Shown one piece after another: positions 1 to 35,764 of a stretch of 40,805 bases of DNA (its first letter is position 1; each line of letters begins with the position of its first letter). The DNA lies in the NCBI GenBank assembly GCA_018828505.1, contig JAHJVF010000028.1, positions 1 through 40,805 of the forward strand, in the 5' to 3' direction. Position numbers and translations under genes: made by a program. The notes below the pieces were generated by a model, which was not told the DNA's origin, ran no database searches, and saw only the letters and a program-made list of their open reading frames with translations. The DNA comes from Bacteroidota bacterium. Lineage in GTDB: Bacteria > Bacteroidota > Ignavibacteria > Ch128b.

Positions 1-113
1 ATCATAGCCTGCCCATTCATAGCCTGCCCATTCATAGCCTGCCCATTCATAGCTATTTTGTGGCGGGCTATTTTGTAGCGGGCTATTTTGTGGCGGGCGT
101 TGTCTTGGCAGGC
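1..113. repeat. GC-core hairpin repeat, copy 1 (cut by the window edge): tandem 15-nt units CATAGCCTGCCCATT followed by tandem 15-nt units TATTTTGT(G/A)GCGGGC and a terminal GGCAGGC
   Basis: GCCTGCC cores read directly at 7, 22 and 37. GGCGGGC/AGCGGGC/GGCAGGC cores at 62, 77, 92 and 107. All are spaced 15 nt apart, and the left and right cores are complementary apart from one G-T/U position. Confidence 0.85.
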
Positions 114-328
114 GAGAATTAACGTGGCGGGCAGGTCGGGACGTATCGGCCTTCGGCAATCCCGCCAAAGGCGCATATGCGTCAACTTAAGGAAAAGATT
201 TTGTTTTTTAATTATAAATAGCCCCAACTTTTGGCATTGCCATTCCTTCGGAATAAGTTGGGGAAAGGATAATCTTCCCAAAACCTTGGGCTTTAGCCCA
301 AATATTCTATTTTTACCAGCCACATCAT

Positions 329-408
329 TCCTGCCCCTTCATAGCCTGCCCATTCATAGCTATTTTGTAGCGGGCTATTTTGTGGCGGGCGTTGTCTTGG
401 CAGGTTGG
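329..408. repeat. GC-core hairpin repeat, copy 2 (CCTGCCCC TTCATAGCCTGCCC ATTCATAGC TATTTTGTAGCGGGC TATTTTGTGGCGGGC GTTGTCTTGGCAGGTTGG)
   Basis: Near-identical to copies 1 and 3, with a different number of 15-nt units. Confidence 0.85.
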
Positions 409-523
409 TAAACAGGCGGGGTTGAAATAATAACCATGCATCATAACTCTCGACCTTGAAGGATTACACAGCTTAAACGTCATTTACAACCTTCAAGGTC
501 ACTCCCATAAATAAACCTTGAGG

Positions 524-596
524 GCTGCCTCACCTGCCCCTTCATAGCCTGCCCATTCATAGCTATTTTGTGGCGGGCGTTATCTTGGCAGGTTGG
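524..596. repeat. GC-core hairpin repeat, copy 3
   Basis: Contains CACCTGCCCCTTCATAGCCTGCCCATTCATAGCTATTTTGTGGCGGGCGTTATCTTGGCAGGTTGG, which matches copy 2 almost base for base. Confidence 0.85.
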
Positions 597-739
597 ACTA
601 AAGTCCTCTTTCGGGGGAGTGAATATTAGTCCCCTACATGCCTGCCCGCCAATCCAGATTACGTGAGGCAGGCGGGAATGTCGGGGCAATTCAAGCAAAA
701 TTATAGTTAAGTTGACGCCAATGCGCCAAAGGCGGGACT

Positions 740-759
740 TTCCGAAGGATCCTTCGGAA
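740..759. repeat. Perfect 20-nt palindrome TTCCGAAGGATCCTTCGGAA (CCGAAGG/CCTTCGG hairpin family)
   Basis: The sequence is self-complementary. The same CCGAAGG...CCTTCGG arms recur at 4358-4396 and 20567-20593. Confidence 0.8.
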
Positions 760-779
760 ATGAACTTTTTGGGTTAAAC

Positions 780-1553
780 TTAAACGAAAAGATTCCAGAG
801 TATATAATCGAGTATTAAGATAATAGCAGCAGAAAGAACAAAAGACCGAATAGTTGAAAGTCCGACTCCCTCAGCTCCTCCTTCTGTTTTGAAGCCGATA
901 TGACAACCGATTAGCGCGGTCATCGCTCCGAAGAAAGTTGCTTTAACCAATCCAAAAACAAAATCGCCAAAAGCGAAAAAGTTTCTCACAGATTCAAAAA
1001 ATACATTGAATGAAATCCCAAGAGAGAAATTACATACAAAGTAAGCACCGCAGACAGCAATTACATCAGCAAAGATCACAAGCAGCGGGATCATAATTAA
1101 AGAAGCTAAATATCTTGGCATTGCTAAATATCGCACCGGATTGATCGACATTGTTTCGAGCGCATCGATCTGTTCGGTAACTTTCATTGTTCCAAGCTCG
1201 GCAGCAATTGACGCACCAACTCGACCGGCTATTACAATTCCCGTTAATACCGGACCTAACTCGGTGATCACAGCACGAACAGTTGCTCCACCGATAAATG
1301 AAAGTGGTGCAAGCCCCTTTAATTGATAAGCAGCCTGCCATGCAGAAACCGCTCCGGTAAAAATTGCGATTATTACAACTAATGGCAGAGAATTAACCCC
1401 AATGTGTTCCATCTGTTTGAGAATTAATTTTCGGTCGCGAAAAACTCTCACCATGCTTATATGAATCTTAAAAAAGAGCGTGCTGATCTCCCCAAATTCG
1501 TTTAGGAAAGAAAGAGTTTTTGAACCGATTTTATCTAGTATAAAAGCTAACAA
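780..1553 (-). CDS. mlaE: MlaE/YrbE-family ABC transporter permease (lipid asymmetry maintenance type)
   Basis: 257 aa with multiple TM segments. Carries the conserved block LGPVLTGIVIAGRVGASIAAELGTMKVTEQIDALETMSINPVRYLAMPR typical of MlaE. TTG start with GGAG 8 nt upstream. Confidence 0.85.
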   Translation of the reverse strand: MLAFILDKIGSKTLSFLNEFGEISTLFFKIHISMVRVFRDRKLILKQMEHIGVNSLPLVVIIAIFTGAVSAWQAAYQLKGLAPLSFIGGATVRAVITELGPVLTGIVIAGRVGASIAAELGTMKVTEQIDALETMSINPVRYLAMPRYLASLIMIPLLVIFADVIAVCGAYFVCNFSLGISFNVFFESVRNFFAFGDFVFGLVKATFFGAMTALIGCHIGFKTEGGAEGVGLSTIRSFVLSAAIILILDYILWNLFV

Positions 1554-30845: not shown

Positions 30846-31050
30846 CCTGCCTGCATACCTTCGGTATGTAAACTGGCAGGCAGGTCAAAATATTTAAAAC
30901 TGATTTTCTCCATTTTCCCCGCCTACACTGCGTTTCGGCGGGCAGGCATCTTCCATTCACCCCGCCTGCCAATACATAGCTATCTCGTGGCAGGTTGGAT
31001 AACTTATTTATATAGCCAGTGATATTTTTTAAAAAGTATATCCAACGGGG
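30846..31050. repeat. Second cluster of GC-core hairpin repeats (same word set as 1-780) plus a GTTGGATA...TATCCAACGGGG hairpin
   Basis: CCTGCCTGC / GCAGGCAGG hairpin at 30846-30884 encloses ATACCTTCGGTAT. CATTCACCCCGCCTGCCAATACATAGCTATCTCGTGGCAGGTTGG resembles copies 1-3. ATATCCAACGGGG at 31038-31050 is identical to 21414-21426. Confidence 0.8.
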
Positions 31051-33028: not shown

Positions 33029-35764
33029 TTATTTCAATTTAGGTTTGAAATTTCTTAACCGATTTGCATTTGTTACAACAGTTACGGAACTAAACGCCAT
33101 TGCAGCACCGGCAATTAACGGTGATAGCAATAATCCAAAGAATGGATAAAGTAATCCGGCAGCAACTGGAATTCCCAGTCCGTTATAAAAGAATGCGCCG
33201 AAAAGATTTTCTTTTATGTTTTTCATAGTCGCTTTAGAAAGTTGAATTGCAAGAACAACTCCTTTTAAGCTTCCTTTGATTAAGGTAATATCAGAAGCCT
33301 CAATTGCTACATCTGTTCCAGTGCCAATTGCTAATCCTATATCAGCTTGAGCAAGAGCAGGGGCATCGTTTATTCCATCACCAACCATCGCAACTTTTTT
33401 CCCTTCATTCTGAAGTTTCTGAACATTGAATGCCTTGTCTTCTGGAAGAACTTCAGCTAGGACTCTATCAATTCCAACCTGTCTGGCAATAGCGTTTGCT
33501 GTTCGGCTGTTATCACCGGTTATCATAACAACCTCCAAACCTAATTTTTTCAACTGAGCGATTGCTTCTTTCGAATCAGCTTTTATTGTATCGGCAACCG
33601 CAATTATGCCGGCAGCTTTGTTGTCAATAGCAACGAACATCGGAGTCTTTCCGTCATCAGCTAGGTGAGTGCTTTTTTCTTCGAGTCCACCAAGATCGAT
33701 ATTAAACTTTTTCATCATCTTAAGATTGCCTAAATAAATCTTGCGTCCATTTACATTGGCTTTAACACCATGACCCGGGACAGCGTTAAACTCATTCGGA
33801 TCGACTAGAGTAATTCCTTTGTCAATAGCTCCTTTAACAATTGCTTCAGCTAATGGATGTTCGGATACTTTCTCAACACTTGCACTGAGGGAGAGTACTT
33901 CTTCTTCAGTGAAGTCATTCGCAACGATAACATCTGTTAGCGAAGGTTTGCCTTCTGTGATAGTTCCGGTTTTATCAAGTACAATAGTATTTAGCTTCTG
34001 AGCAGTCTCTAATGCTTCGCCGCTTCTAATCAATATTCCATTCTCAGCACCTTTACCAACTCCAACCATTAATGAAATTGGCGTTGCAAGACCAAGCGCG
34101 CACGGGCAGGCAATTACCAAAACGGTAACAAATACAATCAAAGAATAAATAAGTTGCGGTTCTGGACCAAAAACATACCAAACAACAAACGATAAAATTG
34201 CTGCGATGACTACTCCCGGTACAAAGTATCCCGAAACTTGATCAACTATTTTTTGAATTGGCGCTTTAGAACTCTGAGCCTGTTCAACCATTTGAATTAT
34301 TTGAGCAAGAGCAGTGTCTTTCCCAACTTTTGTAGCTTTGAACTTGAAAGAGCCTGTCTTATTTATTGTTGCTCCAATTACTTCGTCTCCAAGGTTCTTT
34401 TCGACCGGAATTGCTTCACCAGTTATCATTGATTCATCTACTGACGAAGAACCGTCGATCAGTGTTCCATCTACAGGAATTTTTTCACCTGGCCTAACTA
34501 AAATAATTTCATCTAATACAACTTCTTCAACCGGAATATCTAAATCTTTTCCATCTCTTATAACGCGTGCAGTTTTAGCTTGAAGACCAATTAATTTTTT
34601 AATTGCTTCAGAACTTTTTCCCTTAGCTCGAATTTCTAAAGCCATTCCTAAAACTACTAAAGCTACAACTACAAATATTACATCGAAGAACTGATCCGCT
34701 AATTCAGCTTTGGGAAAAACTGACGGGAAGTAAGTAGCAATAACTGAGTAGAGAAACGCAGCAGTAATACCGGTTGCAATAAGTGTGTGCATATTTGCAG
34801 ACCTGTTTTTGAATGCAGCCCAAGCTCCTGTATAAAATTGTGAGCCGGACCAGAACATTACTGGCAAGCTGAGCAAACTCATCGCTACCCAGATATATCT
34901 CAATATTGGAGACCCCATTTGAAATTGTTCGGGTAAACCCCAGACAGTCGGGTAACTGAAAAATATTACCGGCAGAGATAAAATCGCAGCGAAAATAAAT
35001 TTATTCATAAGGGTCTTATATTCTTTTTCGCGGGCGGCTTGGTTCTCATCAACCGGTTCTTCCCTGCCTGCGCCTGCCTGCGCAGGCGGGCGGGCAGGTT
35101 TTTGTTCTTTTCCATCTTCCTTTGGCTTAACTCCCGAAGTATCAAACGTTTTGTAACCAAGTTTTTCAATTACTTTTTTAATTTCGTTAACATTTATTGA
35201 GCCGGGCACATAATTAATTAATGCTGATTCACTTCCGAGATCGATGCTCGCAGAAATTATTCCTTTTGTCTGGGCGAATTCCTTTTCAATTTTTGTTACA
35301 CACGAGCCGCAGTGCATTCCGTTAATTCCAAGTTTGAGCGTTGACATCCCAGCTTGGTAGCCGGCATTTTTTACTGCGGAAATAATTTCGGAAGTAGATG
35401 TTTCTGCATTTTTAAATTCTACAAAAGCTGTTTCCGAAGCGTAGTTTACAACAGCCGATTTTATACCCGGCAATTTCTTGATCTCTTTCTCAATAGTATT
35501 TACACAAGTTGAACAGCTTAATCCTTGTATTTGCAGTTGTAATTTTTCAATGCCATCTATTGTTGTTCTGTTTGAAGCTTCACTGCTTTGTTTGTGCACA
35601 AATTCATTCGGGTTCAGCTCAAATTTATTCTTGCAATTATCAGAACAAAAATCGAATCTCTTTCCATTCGTATCTAGAAAATATTTCGAAGGCGACTTCA
35701 CTTCCATTCCGCACACTGGATCGTGAACCGGATAATTTTTTGTTGAAGAGCCGTTATTAGACAT
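33029..35764 (-). CDS. copA: Copper-translocating P1B-type ATPase with an N-terminal YHS/TRASH domain and two HMA domains
   Basis: CGMEV...FCSDNC, GLSCSTC and GMHCGSC metal-binding domains. CPC motif ([11 protein letters not shown]), [15 protein letters not shown]. Confidence 0.95.
35062..35098. repeat. GC-core hairpin (CCTGCC TGCGCCTGCC tgcgca GGCGGGC GGGCAGG) embedded in frame in copA
   Basis: Same core words as the 1-780 repeats. Folds as 8 bp, a 2-nt bulge, then 6 bp. Encodes [12 protein letters not shown] in the linker between HMA2 and the first TM. Confidence 0.75.

What the first reader, a model, noticed from the sequence alone, without database searches (positions are those of the whole stretch)
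1..780. 780-bp gene-free tract packed with a modular GC-rich hairpin repeat family built from 15-nt tandem units
There are three copies, at 1-113, 329-408 and 524-596. Each has a left array of units with a GCCTGCC core (CATAGCCTGCCCATT) followed by a right array with a GGCGGGC core (TATTTTGTGGCGGGC), ending in GGCAGG(C/T)TGG. The number of 15-nt units differs between copies. Left and right cores are complementary apart from one T-G position, which would be a G-U pair only in a plus-strand RNA. They keep the same 15-nt spacing, so the arrays could zip into an interrupted hairpin. Between copies lie further small hairpins: CCCCAACTT...AAGTTGGGG, GACCTTGAAGG...CCTTCAAGGTC, CCTGCCCGCC...GGCAGGCGGG, and the perfect palindrome at 740-759. 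These GC islands stand out sharply in an AT-rich genome. I do not recognise them as a described REP/BIME/MITE family.
Basis: seen in the sequence. Interest (0 to 1): 0.6.

Follow-up and report, generated by a model that had tools for sequence, protein, structure and literature searches.

The report
Nested miniature hairpin insertion elements
The gene-free tract is a pile-up of tiny (30- and 36-base) GC-rich hairpin DNA elements that have inserted precisely, without duplicating their target, into intergenic DNA, genes and each other's loops. The "15-base tandem units" are the two halves of 30-base elements stacked like Russian dolls.

Summary
Three arrays of 15-nt units lie in a 779-bp gene-free tail downstream of mlaE, and shuffles of the window give none.

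They belong to a genome-wide superfamily in an Ignavibacteria draft genome (3.9 Mb, 36.8% GC), defined by CCYGCC/GGCRGG arms:
- "F36" (my label): CCTGCCCGCC-N16-GGCAGGCGGG, about 194 copies.
- "F30" (my label): CCYGCC-N18-GGCRGG, 111 centres.

Comparing filled and empty sites shows exact 30- or 36-nt insertions with no target duplication. The cases are two paralogous Y1-transposase genes, secretion-tail (T9SS) domains, and the loops of other hairpins.

Three different host repeats each exist in 1+1, 2+2 and 3+3 unit states. The same 30-nt module is always added at the dyad centre, CATAG|. The arrays therefore arise mainly by nested insertion, not slippage.

The arms keep a T·G/C·A asymmetry, and F36 arms are identical across several Ignavibacteria families. 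Loops are nearly free to vary. This points to recognition of the arms by a protein.

The mobilising enzyme was not found. The genome has 18 Y1 (IS200/RAYT-like) hits, but none is flanked by this family and none co-occurs with it across genomes.

Verdict: a REP/BIME-like selfish repeat system with unusual self-nesting. I class it as a new variant of a known kind, of moderate interest.

The parts
1..112 (+). Array copy 1, cut by the contig end. It has at least 3.5 left units CCTGCCCATTCATAG (1-52), three inner right units CTATTTTGT(G/A)GCGGG (53-97) and one outer host unit CGTTGTCTTGGCAGG (98-112).
   Evidence: Folds at -22.8 kcal/mol as + strand DNA.
113..135 (+). Right part (CGAGAATTAACGT + arm GGCGGGCAGG) of a 36-nt F36 element, reverse orientation, into whose loop array 1 is inserted. 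Its left arm lies beyond the contig start.
   Evidence: Identical to the last 23 nt of the intact F36 at C1:10276-10311. It is the same loop position, TCA|CG, as five other F30-in-F36 nestings.
316..412 (+). Array copy 2, a 3+3 array. The left units are a degenerate host unit CCAGCCACATCATT, then CCTGCCCCTTCATAG and CCTGCCCATTCATAG. The right units are CTATTTTGTAGCGGG, CTATTTTGTGGCGGG and CGTTGTCTTGGCAGG, followed by TTGG.
   Evidence: Folds at -16.4 kcal/mol.
533..596 (+). Array copy 3, a 2+2 array: CCTGCCCCTTCATAG CCTGCCCATTCATAG | CTATTTTGTGGCGGG CGTTATCTTGGCAGG, followed by TTGG.
   Evidence: A paralogous copy lies on contig C98.
641..676 (+). F36 element CCTGCCCGCC-AATCCAGATTACGTGA-GGCAGGCGGG. 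It is inserted in the loop of another hairpin (CCCCTACAT..ATGTCGGGG, about 629-686).
   Evidence: It appears as a 36-nt gap against the paralogous repeat on C98. It belongs to the roughly 194-copy family.
223..262 (.). Unrelated small hairpin CCCCAACTT...AAGTTGGGG; 2 other matches in the genome.
452..500 (.). Hairpin GACCTTGAAGG-N27-CCTTCAAGGTC, from another small repeat family; about 3 other matches.
   Evidence: (I8).
739..760 (.). Perfect palindrome TTTCCGAAGGATCCTTCGGAAA, a member of a CCGAAGG/CCTTCGG hairpin family; about 9 other matches.
   Evidence: (I4).
160..737 (.). A 31-nt inverted repeat (160-190 and 707-737, 84% complementary) that brackets most of the tract.
   Evidence: I1. The right arm also occurs on C98. 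Its significance was not resolved.
780..1553 (-). mlaE permease gene. The repeat tract lies downstream of its stop codon.
   Evidence: Pfam PF02405, E = 6e-75.
30965..30994 (+). Single (1+1) F30 element CCTGCCAATACATAG|CTATCTCGTGGCAGG. This is the unexpanded state of a host repeat that is 2+2 on C110 and C134 and 3+3 on C103.
35063..35098 (-). A 36-nt block made of the family's words, lying in frame in the copA linker. It encodes [12 protein letters not shown].
   Evidence: The G004 orthologue (76% identical) has a shorter linker, but the linker is too divergent to fix the boundaries.

Best explanation
Window 1-779 is a BIME-like pile-up of members of a superfamily of miniature, non-coding, hairpin-forming insertion elements. 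The superfamily is restricted to Ignavibacteria.

What the elements are. The unit of insertion is one short imperfect palindrome bounded exactly by a CCYGCC arm and a GGCRGG arm. There are two forms, which I label F30 and F36:
- F30, 30 nt: CCYGCC-N18-GGCRGG, usually with ..AGCTAT.. at the centre.
- F36, 36 nt: CCTGCCCGCC-N16-GGCAGGCGGG.

Shown here:
- These units appear as exact 30- or 36-nt insertions without target-site duplication.
- They insert into intergenic DNA, in frame into genes, and often into the loops of pre-existing hairpins, including members of their own family.
- One F30 subtype (CCTGCCCMTTCATAG|CTATKTTGTGGCGGG) is found only directly after CATAG at the dyad centre of another F30.
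- That subtype carries the same CATAG|CTAT centre itself, so it can be hit again. Repeated central insertion gives L^n R^n arrays. Their 15-nt "tandem units" are half-elements that pair in register as an interrupted hairpin.
- Occasional unbalanced arrays show that slippage or deletion of single units acts secondarily.

Inferred:
- The arms are recognition sites for a protein that acts on the folded single strand. Four facts suggest this. The arms are nearly invariant while loops drift freely. The loop length is fixed. The same arms recur across families of the class. A T·G/C·A asymmetry that distinguishes the two strands is preserved rather than corrected.
- The absence of a target duplication fits a single-strand cut-and-rejoin mechanism. 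The HUH Y1 transposases (IS200/IS605 TnpA, RAYT) work this way, and this genome has 18 Y1_Tnp (PF01797) matches, 12 above the family cut-off.
- The cognate enzyme was not identified, so this last step is a hypothesis. I put it at about 0.3.

The elements are most likely selfish. Their side effects are assembly breaks, short in-frame peptide insertions and repeat-mediated rearrangement.
For: The family exists and is abundant:
- The junction core occurs 48 times in this genome, 3 times in one genome of the same family, and 0 times in two genomes of the same genus.
- CCTGCC and GGCAGG each occur 1080 times. Composition-matched control hexamers occur about 210-380 times.
- Spacings between arms peak at 16/20/24 (F36) and at 18/33/48/63 (F30 and its nested forms). 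The wrong orientation shows only background.

Precise insertion without target duplication:
- Two Y1 paralogues, 87% identical, each carry one exact in-frame insert that the other lacks: 36 nt in C255 and 30 nt in C133.
- F36 is a 12-aa insert in the T9SS C-terminal domains of C257, C274 and C55. In most of the paralogous domains listed the alignment gap there is exactly 12 aa. The junction is aaattcca|F36|aattcca, against the empty site aaattcca|aatacca.
- The window's own F36 (641-676) is a 36-nt gap against the paralogue on C98.

Nesting:
- F30 lies inside the F36 loop at ...CG|TGA-GGCAGGCGGG on C39, C57, C93 and C454 (C487 reads CG|TAA and has degenerate outer arms). The same applies to window copy 1 (positions 113-135).
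- Three host repeats with different flanks each occur in 1+1, 2+2 and 3+3 states. Their outer units are kept and the same inner modules are added at CATAG|. Another Ignavibacteriales genome has the 1+1 state at the site that is 2+2 here.
- Of 29 innermost inner-type 30-mers, 28 follow CATAG and none stands alone.
- Balanced arrays number 201 of 222 matches, counting both strands.

Constraint on the arms:
- Given a perfect left arm, the right arm at spacing 16 is perfect in 188 cases and has one mismatch in 25. There are 153 different loops among 198 copies.
- The same arms occur in 12 of 201 sampled genomes of the class, across 9 genera and 3 families. They occur in 0 of about 300 genomes of other classes of the phylum.
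- F30 arm combinations are T..G or C..A in 75 cases, T..A in 34 and C..G in 2, against 51, 46 and 14 expected.

Y1 genes: 18 PF01797 matches in the genome.
Against: - No Y1 gene in this genome, or in G001, G002, G004, G061 or G095, is flanked by CCYGCC elements. Each has its own, different flanking hairpins.
- Genomes that carry F36 and have a single Y1 gene carry different Y1 subfamilies.
- The C174-type Y1 is present in 12 of 18 genomes with F36 and in 10 of 23 without it.
- Y1_Tnp is in 12 of 12 genomes with F36, but also in 76% of all genomes of the class.
- Orientation bias relative to GC skew or local gene strand is weak (p = 0.25 and 0.05). It is weaker than I would expect for lagging-strand-targeted IS200/IS605 elements; that expectation is from my own knowledge.
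- Target preference is weak: C at -4, R at -1 and G at +4.
- Some arrays are unbalanced (C4, C22, C459), so nesting is not the only process.
- Spread of inner modules between arrays by gene conversion, rather than by transposition, cannot be excluded.
- All mobility evidence is comparative.
Confidence: 0.6

Rival explanations
1. The arrays are ordinary tandem repeats of 15 nt. They grew by replication slippage on each arm, and selection for hairpin stability kept the two arms balanced.
For: - TRF scores them as perfect or near-perfect period-15 arrays.
- A few loci differ by a single unit on one arm only: C4 against C137/C214/C402, C22 against C110, and C459 against C153.
Against: - Three host contexts with different flanks gained the same 30-nt module symmetrically at the exact centre. 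The inserted left and right halves differ from their neighbours by diagnostic bases and co-vary (Fisher p = 0.01).
- Different families nest in one another at non-central loop positions. Slippage cannot do that.
- Single 30- and 36-nt units occur as clean insertions in genes.
Confidence: 0.08
2. The elements act as RNA, for example as terminators, mRNA stabilisers or small RNAs transcribed from the strand on which the T·G position becomes a G·U pair.
For: - In 24 of 26 arrays the left-to-right strand folds more stably, by 1.4 kcal/mol on average.
- Most copies are intergenic and many lie downstream of genes.
- REPs of other bacteria are reported to act at the RNA level (PMC3733652).
Against: - There is no orientation bias relative to co-directional flanking genes: arrays 2 sense against 4 antisense, and F36 30 same-sense (12 + 18) against 23 opposite (12 + 11).
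- In the window the stable strand is antisense to mlaE.
- There is no Rfam match.
- The C·A mismatch is preserved rather than avoided.
- Copies sit in frame inside genes.
- Folding z-scores are modest, -1.2 to -2.8.
- No expression data could be consulted.
Confidence: 0.07
3. The elements are mobile as described but are moved by something other than a Y1/RAYT enzyme. Candidates are another nuclease or recombinase encoded elsewhere (possibly in unassembled DNA), or homology-driven conversion between hairpins. The conserved arms may then be kept by a host DNA-binding protein, as BIMEs bind IHF and gyrase in E. coli.
For: - No Y1 gene is adjacent to the family or co-occurs with it.
- The arms are conserved across families of the class, even in genomes with only 1-6 copies. 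This suits a conserved host factor.
- The same genome holds other hairpin families paired with other small genes: DUF559 nucleases and several Y1 types. Dedicated partners are therefore the rule here, and this family's partner is simply unknown.
Against: - No candidate gene is flanked on both sides by these elements.
- DUF559 genes are bracketed by a different hairpin family.
- Conversion alone cannot explain first insertions into unique coding sequence.
Confidence: 0.25

Closest known systems
REP / BIME and REPIN-RAYT systems (E. coli REP/BIME; Pseudomonas REPINs; PMC3116915, PMC3337134; the GTAG- and CGTC-tagged REP survey PMC3733652)
   Same: - Imperfect palindromes of 20-40 nt in hundreds of copies, mostly extragenic.
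- Conserved stems with variable loops, and G·T pairs in the stems.
- Clustering into mosaics.
- Occasional copies inside genes, and insertion into other palindromes. Both are reported in PMC3733652.
- A genome rich in Y1 transposase genes.
   Different: - There is no GTAG or CGTC tag at one end of F30 or F36 in general. Only the inner subtype is flanked by ATAG/CTAT.
- No RAYT gene is flanked by this family.
- The unit that inserts is a single hairpin of 30 or 36 nt, not a REP doublet (REPIN).
- Arrays are nested inside loops, whereas BIMEs are laid side by side in alternating orientation.
- The arms are arranged A-B...A'-B' with an obligatory T·G plus C·A.
IS200/IS605 elements and their miniature derivatives (PATEs); comparison from my own knowledge
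   Same: - Insertion without target duplication.
- Hairpins carrying mismatches that mark the active strand.
- For the inner subtype, a fixed pentanucleotide (CATAG) immediately 5' of the insertion point.
   Different: - Those elements need two subterminal hairpins and a conserved 4-5-nt target. Here there is one hairpin, and most subfamilies have only a weak target preference.
- No clear replication-strand bias was seen.
Rickettsia palindromic elements (RPE), as summarised in PMC3733652
   Same: Palindromic repeats inserted in frame in protein-coding genes and tolerated as extra peptide segments.
   Different: By my recollection RPEs are roughly 100-150 bp and are confined to Rickettsia. They are not known for nesting, and they are unrelated in sequence.
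GC clusters of yeast mitochondrial DNA (e.g. GC42; PMC4478555)
   Same: - GC-rich hairpin elements of about 40 nt that spread in an AT-rich genome.
- Substitutions concentrated in the loops.
- Merger and shuffling of units into compound clusters.
- The mobilising mechanism is unknown.
   Different: - GC clusters carry a putative AG target duplication. These elements have none.
- The host is an organelle, not a bacterium.
- No self-centred nesting is described for them.

Membership tests
REP/REPIN-RAYT system | Short (about 20-40 nt) imperfect palindromes in many dispersed, mainly extragenic copies | tested here: met
   About 194 F36 copies and 111 F30 centres. 80% of F36 copies are intergenic, in a genome where about 18% of the DNA is non-coding.
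REP/REPIN-RAYT system | A conserved GTAG (or CGTC) tetranucleotide at one end of the hairpin (PMC3733652) | tested here: not met
   The flank matrices show only C/Y at -4, R at -1 and G at +4. Only the nested inner subtype is flanked by ATAG...CTAT.
REP/REPIN-RAYT system | A RAYT (Y1 transposase) gene flanked by copies of the same repeat | tested here: not met
   The genome has 18 PF01797 matches. Each gene inspected is flanked by a different hairpin family, and no CCYGCC element is adjacent. The same holds in G004, G061, G095 and G002. The assembly is fragmented (539 contigs), so an unassembled partner cannot be excluded.
REP/REPIN-RAYT system | The replicating unit is an inverted doublet of two REPs (REPIN; PMC3116915, PMC3337134) | tested here: not met
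   The clean insertions are single hairpins of 30 or 36 nt. A few inverted pairs exist, for example C15:1736-1819, but they are not the rule.
IS200/IS605-type (Y1 HUH) transposition | Insertion without target-site duplication | tested here: met
   Five classes of junction have no duplication.
IS200/IS605-type (Y1 HUH) transposition | Insertion 3' of a specific 4-5-nt target | tested here: inconclusive
   The inner subtype lies after CATAG in 28 of 29 cases. Other subfamilies show only weak flank preferences. No covariation between loop and flank was found.
IS200/IS605-type (Y1 HUH) transposition | Orientation bias relative to replication (lagging-strand template) | tested here: inconclusive
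   Using GC skew as proxy, p = 0.25. Using local gene strand as proxy, p = 0.05. Contigs are short.
Known structured RNA families (Rfam) | A match to a curated covariance model | tested here: not met
   No match at gathering threshold anywhere in the window.
MITE (DDE-transposon derivative) | Terminal inverted repeats plus a target-site duplication | tested here: not met
   No target duplication at any resolved junction.

The most novel reading that the evidence does not exclude
Single 30- or 36-nt hairpins are complete mobile units, which would put them among the smallest mobile DNAs known. Their machinery recognises a CCYGCC/GGCRGG hairpin carrying an obligatory T·G/C·A asymmetry as both donor and target. 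The family can therefore insert into its own loops and grow recursive palindromes. The enzyme responsible would be an Ignavibacteria-specific factor not yet linked to repeats, not one of the classical RAYTs that sit beside their own REPs.
Probability: 0.3. Interest if true: 0.75.

Novelty: new variant of a known kind. Interest (0 to 1): 0.55.

Why it matters
- **Smallest mobile unit.** For REP-type repeats, the smallest unit that moves, and how it moves, is still argued. In Pseudomonas the doublet (REPIN) is taken to be the replicator. This genome offers dozens of natural filled and empty site pairs in which one 30- or 36-nt hairpin is the inserted unit.
- **Target choice.** The graded 1+1, 2+2 and 3+3 series records repeated insertion into the element's own centre. 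That makes target choice (hairpin loops, CATAG|) and strand marking (T·G/C·A) directly testable with oligonucleotides and the genome's Y1 proteins.
- **Practical consequences.**
  - The family explains why this assembly is broken into 539 contigs.
  - It adds 10-12-residue peptides to real proteins (Y1 transposases, secretion-tail domains, probably CopA).
  - It shows that apparent "tandem repeats" can be nested palindromes.

Tried and rejected
- **Rfam.** A scan of the whole window found nothing.
- **Literature.** Searches for the arm sequences and for Ignavibacteria repeats found nothing relevant.
- **RAYT partner by adjacency.**
  - I inspected the flanks of the Y1 genes here and in five relatives. 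Each has other hairpins.
  - A search for any gene bracketed by CCYGCC elements gave only housekeeping-type genes.
- **RAYT partner by co-occurrence.**
  - Y1_Tnp is too common in the class to be informative.
  - The C174-type Y1 is not associated with F36.
There are 11 DUF559 genes here, but they are bracketed by CCCTCTC/GAGAGGG-type hairpins, not by this family.
- **Guide-target idea.** Mutual information between loop and flank positions shows only within-loop subfamily signal.
- **Exact boundaries of the copA insert.** The linker is too divergent in the closest orthologue.
- **Larger autonomous element.** The F36 copies with identical loops in G001, G061 and G175 sit in small composite repeats without genes. 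The 16-copy F30 composite here is a repeat of about 250 nt with no gene.
- **Replication-strand bias.** Inconclusive.
- **Chance or unfollowed hits.** A Bathyarchaeota match to the core lacks the left arm, so I treat it as chance. Seven viral contigs with the F36 pattern were not followed up. Four are high-GC and may be chance.
Full report
**1. The observation**

The window is a whole contig (C105) of a draft genome with 539 contigs, 3.9 Mb and 36.8% GC. Positions 1-779 carry no credible gene. The ORFs inside them have no Pfam match, and the first real gene is mlaE at 780-1553 on the minus strand.

- Tandem Repeats Finder reports period-15 arrays at 2-53, 52-98, 330-360, 359-390 and 533-563.
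- The repeat finder aligns 75-nt copies at about 8-112, 315-419 and 533-607.
- The left unit CCTGCCCMTTCATAG occurs 7 times in the window and never in 100 shuffles.
- The left and right cores are complementary except for one T/C position.
- The plus strand folds into the predicted interrupted hairpins at -22.8, -16.4 and -12.8 kcal/mol. The excess over shuffles is only moderate (z = -2.8, -2.2, -1.2). The minus strand is 2-3.4 kcal/mol weaker.
- The small hairpins between the copies are also present.
- Copy 1 is cut by the contig end.

**2. A genome-wide superfamily**

The junction core CATAGCTATYTTGTGGCRGG occurs 48 times in this genome. Public records that share it are Ignavibacterium/Ignavibacteriales MAGs, so the organism belongs to the Ignavibacteria.

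The hexamers CCTGCC and GGCAGG each occur 1080 times. Composition-matched hexamers occur about 210-380 times. The distance from CCYGCC to the next GGCRGG has sharp peaks, and the reverse order shows only background. Two element types explain the peaks. F36 and F30 are my labels.
- **F36** is CCTGCCCGCC-N16-GGCAGGCGGG. It has 101 + 93 copies on the two strands, plus a few variants.
- **F30** is CCYGCC-N18-GGCRGG, mostly CCYGCCAC-N4-nnGCTAT-N4-gTGGCRGG. It has 111 centres. Further peaks at 33, 48 and 63 nt come from nested units.

The window holds further members at 641-676, 30846-30994 and 35063-35098.

**3. The elements are insertions, exact and without target duplication**

- (a) Two paralogous Y1-transposase genes (C133:345-689 and C255:4287-4667) are 87% identical. 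Each contains one insert that the other lacks.
  - C255 carries the 36-nt insert CCTGCCCGCC...GGCAGGCGGG.
  - C133 carries the 30-nt insert CCTGCC...GGCGGG.
  - Both are in frame. No base is duplicated at the junctions.
- (b) F36 forms a 12-residue insert (HLPA....RQAG) in the secretion-tail (T9SS C-terminal) domains of three proteins. A decayed copy sits in a fourth.
  - In most of the paralogous domains listed from this genome the alignment gap at that point is exactly 12 residues.
  - The filled junction reads aaattcca|F36|aattcca. The empty site reads aaattcca|aatacca.
- (c) The window's own F36 at 641-676 appears as a 36-nt gap when window 256-800 is aligned with a paralogous composite repeat on contig C98. 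The insertion lies in the loop of another hairpin, CCCCGACAT..ATGTCGGGG.
- In total, 24 F36 copies lie inside ORFs of at least 250 codons, read in all three sense frames.

**4. The 15-nt "tandem units" are halves of nested 30-nt modules**

Arrays are overwhelmingly balanced. The counts, with both strands included, are 161 for 1+1, 34 for 2+2 and 6 for 3+3, against 21 unbalanced.

The decisive evidence is a graded series. Three different host repeats, recognisable by their unique flanks and by diagnostic bases in their outer units, each occur in 1+1, 2+2 and 3+3 states. In every case the outer pair is kept. The added material is the same 30-nt module, CCTGCCCATTCATAG|CTATTTTGTGGCGGG and then CCTGCCCCTTCATAG|CTATGTTGTGGCGGG. 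It is placed exactly at the centre, after CATAG.

A second Ignavibacteriales genome carries the 1+1 state at the site that is 2+2 on C1, C26 and C181 and 3+3 on C153.

The inner-type module is never found alone. Of 29 innermost copies, 28 follow CATAG, and the remaining one follows CAGAG. Of 40 inner left units, 36 are preceded by (C)ATAG. The left and right variants of the innermost pair co-vary (Fisher p = 0.01, although the copies are not independent).

Different families also nest in one another. On C39, C57, C93 and C454 an F30 sits in an F36 loop at ...CG|TGA-GGCAGGCGGG; C487 has a variant junction (CG|TAA) and degenerate outer arms. Window copy 1 is itself inserted at the same loop position of an F36. 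The right part of that F36 is window 113-135, identical to the end of the intact F36 at C1:10276-10311.

Replication slippage cannot produce symmetric gains of a distinct module at the dyad centre in unrelated contexts. It also cannot place one family inside another. It probably does explain the few arrays that differ by one unit on one arm (C4, C22, C459).

**5. What is constrained**

- Given a perfect left arm, the right arm of F36 at spacing 16 is perfect in 188 cases and has one mismatch in 25.
- The 16-nt loops are almost free to vary: 153 different loops in 198 copies. Only GA before the right arm is strongly kept.
- The two arms are not true inverted repeats. They are arranged A-B...A'-B', so each strand's hairpin has one T·G and one C·A.
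- In F30 the mixed state (CCTGCC with GGCGGG) is over-represented at 75 of 111 against 51 expected. The perfect C-G state is nearly absent at 2 against 14 expected.
- The asymmetry is therefore preserved rather than repaired.
- F36 with identical arms and loop length occurs in 12 of 201 sampled genomes of the class, across 9 genera and 3 families, usually at 1-17 copies. It occurs in none of about 300 genomes from other classes of the phylum. The control pattern gives zero.
- This pattern fits recognition of the arms by a conserved protein, probably on a folded single strand where the mismatches mark the strand.

**6. The mechanism and the missing enzyme**

Exact ends, no target duplication, hairpins with strand-marking mismatches and, for one subtype, a fixed pentanucleotide 5' of the insertion point all resemble HUH Y1 transposition (IS200/IS605, RAYT). 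That comparison rests on my own knowledge of those families.

The genome has 18 Y1_Tnp matches. Some are IS200-like and some RAYT-like by NCBIfam, and one passes the RAYT cut-off.

I could not tie any of them to this family.
- Every Y1 gene inspected here and in G001, G002, G004, G061 and G095 is flanked by its own, different hairpins.
- Genomes with F36 and a single Y1 gene carry different Y1 subfamilies.
- One candidate subfamily shows no association: 12 of 18 genomes with F36 against 10 of 23 without.
- Y1_Tnp is present in all 12 genomes with F36, but also in 76% of the class.
- No other gene is bracketed by the elements.
The 11 DUF559 genes here are bracketed by a different hairpin family.
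- Orientation relative to GC skew or local gene strand is only weakly biased.

The Y1 step is therefore inferred. I put it at about 0.3.

**7. The RNA reading**

In 24 of 26 arrays the left-to-right strand folds better, which reflects the T·G pairs. Against an RNA role:
- Orientation relative to co-directional flanking genes is unbiased: 2 sense against 4 antisense for arrays, and about even for F36.
- In the window the stable strand is antisense to mlaE.
- Rfam has no match.

**8. Comparison with known systems**

The family works like REP/BIME sequences. It shares their size, copy number, extragenic bias, conserved stems with variable loops, G·T pairs, occasional intragenic copies and insertion into other palindromes. 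All of these are described for GTAG- and CGTC-tagged REPs in PMC3733652.

It fails the defining tests for membership.
- It has no GTAG or CGTC tag.
- It has no RAYT flanked by it.
- The inserted unit is a single hairpin, not a REPIN doublet (PMC3116915, PMC3337134).

The in-frame gene insertions recall Rickettsia palindromic elements. The GC-rich hairpins in an AT-rich genome, with loop-biased substitutions and merging units, recall yeast mitochondrial GC clusters. Those carry a putative AG target duplication (PMC4478555).

I found no description of recursive self-nesting at the dyad centre.

**9. Verdict**

- The finding is real and is not a local oddity.
- It is a selfish-looking, REP-like miniature insertion element family with an unusual, well-documented nesting behaviour and an unidentified mobilising enzyme.
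- I class it as a new variant of a known kind, of moderate interest.

Noticed in passing
window 35063-35098 (- strand, copA 33029-35764): A 36-nt block made of the family's words lies in frame in the CopA linker and encodes [12 protein letters not shown]. The 76%-identical orthologue in G004 has a shorter linker, but the region is too divergent to fix the insert boundaries.
   Followed up: partly
window 30846-30994: A second cluster of the same superfamily. It includes a 1+1 F30 at 30965-30994, which is the unexpanded state of a host repeat that is 2+2 on C110 and C134 and 3+3 on C103.
   Followed up: yes
G000 contigs C424, C341, C133, C108, C434, C255, C90, C93, C174, C154 and others (L001-L008): The genome has 18 Y1_Tnp matches. 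Most of these genes are bracketed by their own distinct small hairpin repeats, so several REP-RAYT-like pairs appear to coexist. The IS200-like copy on C424 has an internal TGA.
   Followed up: partly
G000 C90:~2004-2228 (L008): A Y1 gene, paralogous to the one on C434, is split by a MITE-like insert of about 68 nt with CACCCCGTTGGAT...ATCCAACGGGGT ends. The same termini recur near F30 elements and in the window around 31038.
   Followed up: no
G000 C34, C210, C276, C16, C535, C269, C49 and others: There are 11 DUF559 (Vsr-like nuclease) matches. Most of the small genes inspected are bracketed by CCCTCTC.../...GAGAGGG or GGGAGGG-type hairpins. One copy is embedded in an 811-codon ORF on C49.
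   Followed up: partly
G000 C257:1028-1324, C274:5419-5715, C55:8252-8554, C107:2564-2875: Secretion-tail (T9SS C-terminal) domains carry a 12-residue F36-encoded insert at the same position. The arm sequences are still perfect in three of them, even though the surrounding domains are only about 64% identical.
   Followed up: partly
G000 C98:1-330 compared with window 266-740: A paralogous composite repeat lacks both a block of about 200 nt (array copy 2 plus the 452-500 hairpin) and the F36 at 641-676. The flanks beyond about 740 are unrelated, so this is a second locus, not an allele.
   Followed up: partly
window 160-190 and 707-737: A 31-nt inverted repeat (84% complementary) brackets about 550 nt of the tract. 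It may be the ends of a larger composite element.
   Followed up: no
G000, 16 loci (e.g. C172:15768, C140:3542, C392:7587); many at contig ends: A gene-less composite repeat of about 250 nt carries the F30 CCCGCCACGACAATGCTATGATATGGCAGG. It coincides with many assembly breaks.
   Followed up: partly
L052, L054, L055 (IMG/VR contigs): Three viral contigs share an identical F36-pattern element (loop CCACTCAGTAGTGAGG) in about 40% GC sequence. They may be Ignavibacteria phages carrying the element.
   Followed up: no
G061 C61 (L040): The only Y1 gene of G061 is flanked on both sides by tandem arrays of its own GC-rich hairpin repeats of about 40-55 nt, unrelated to CCYGCC.
   Followed up: no
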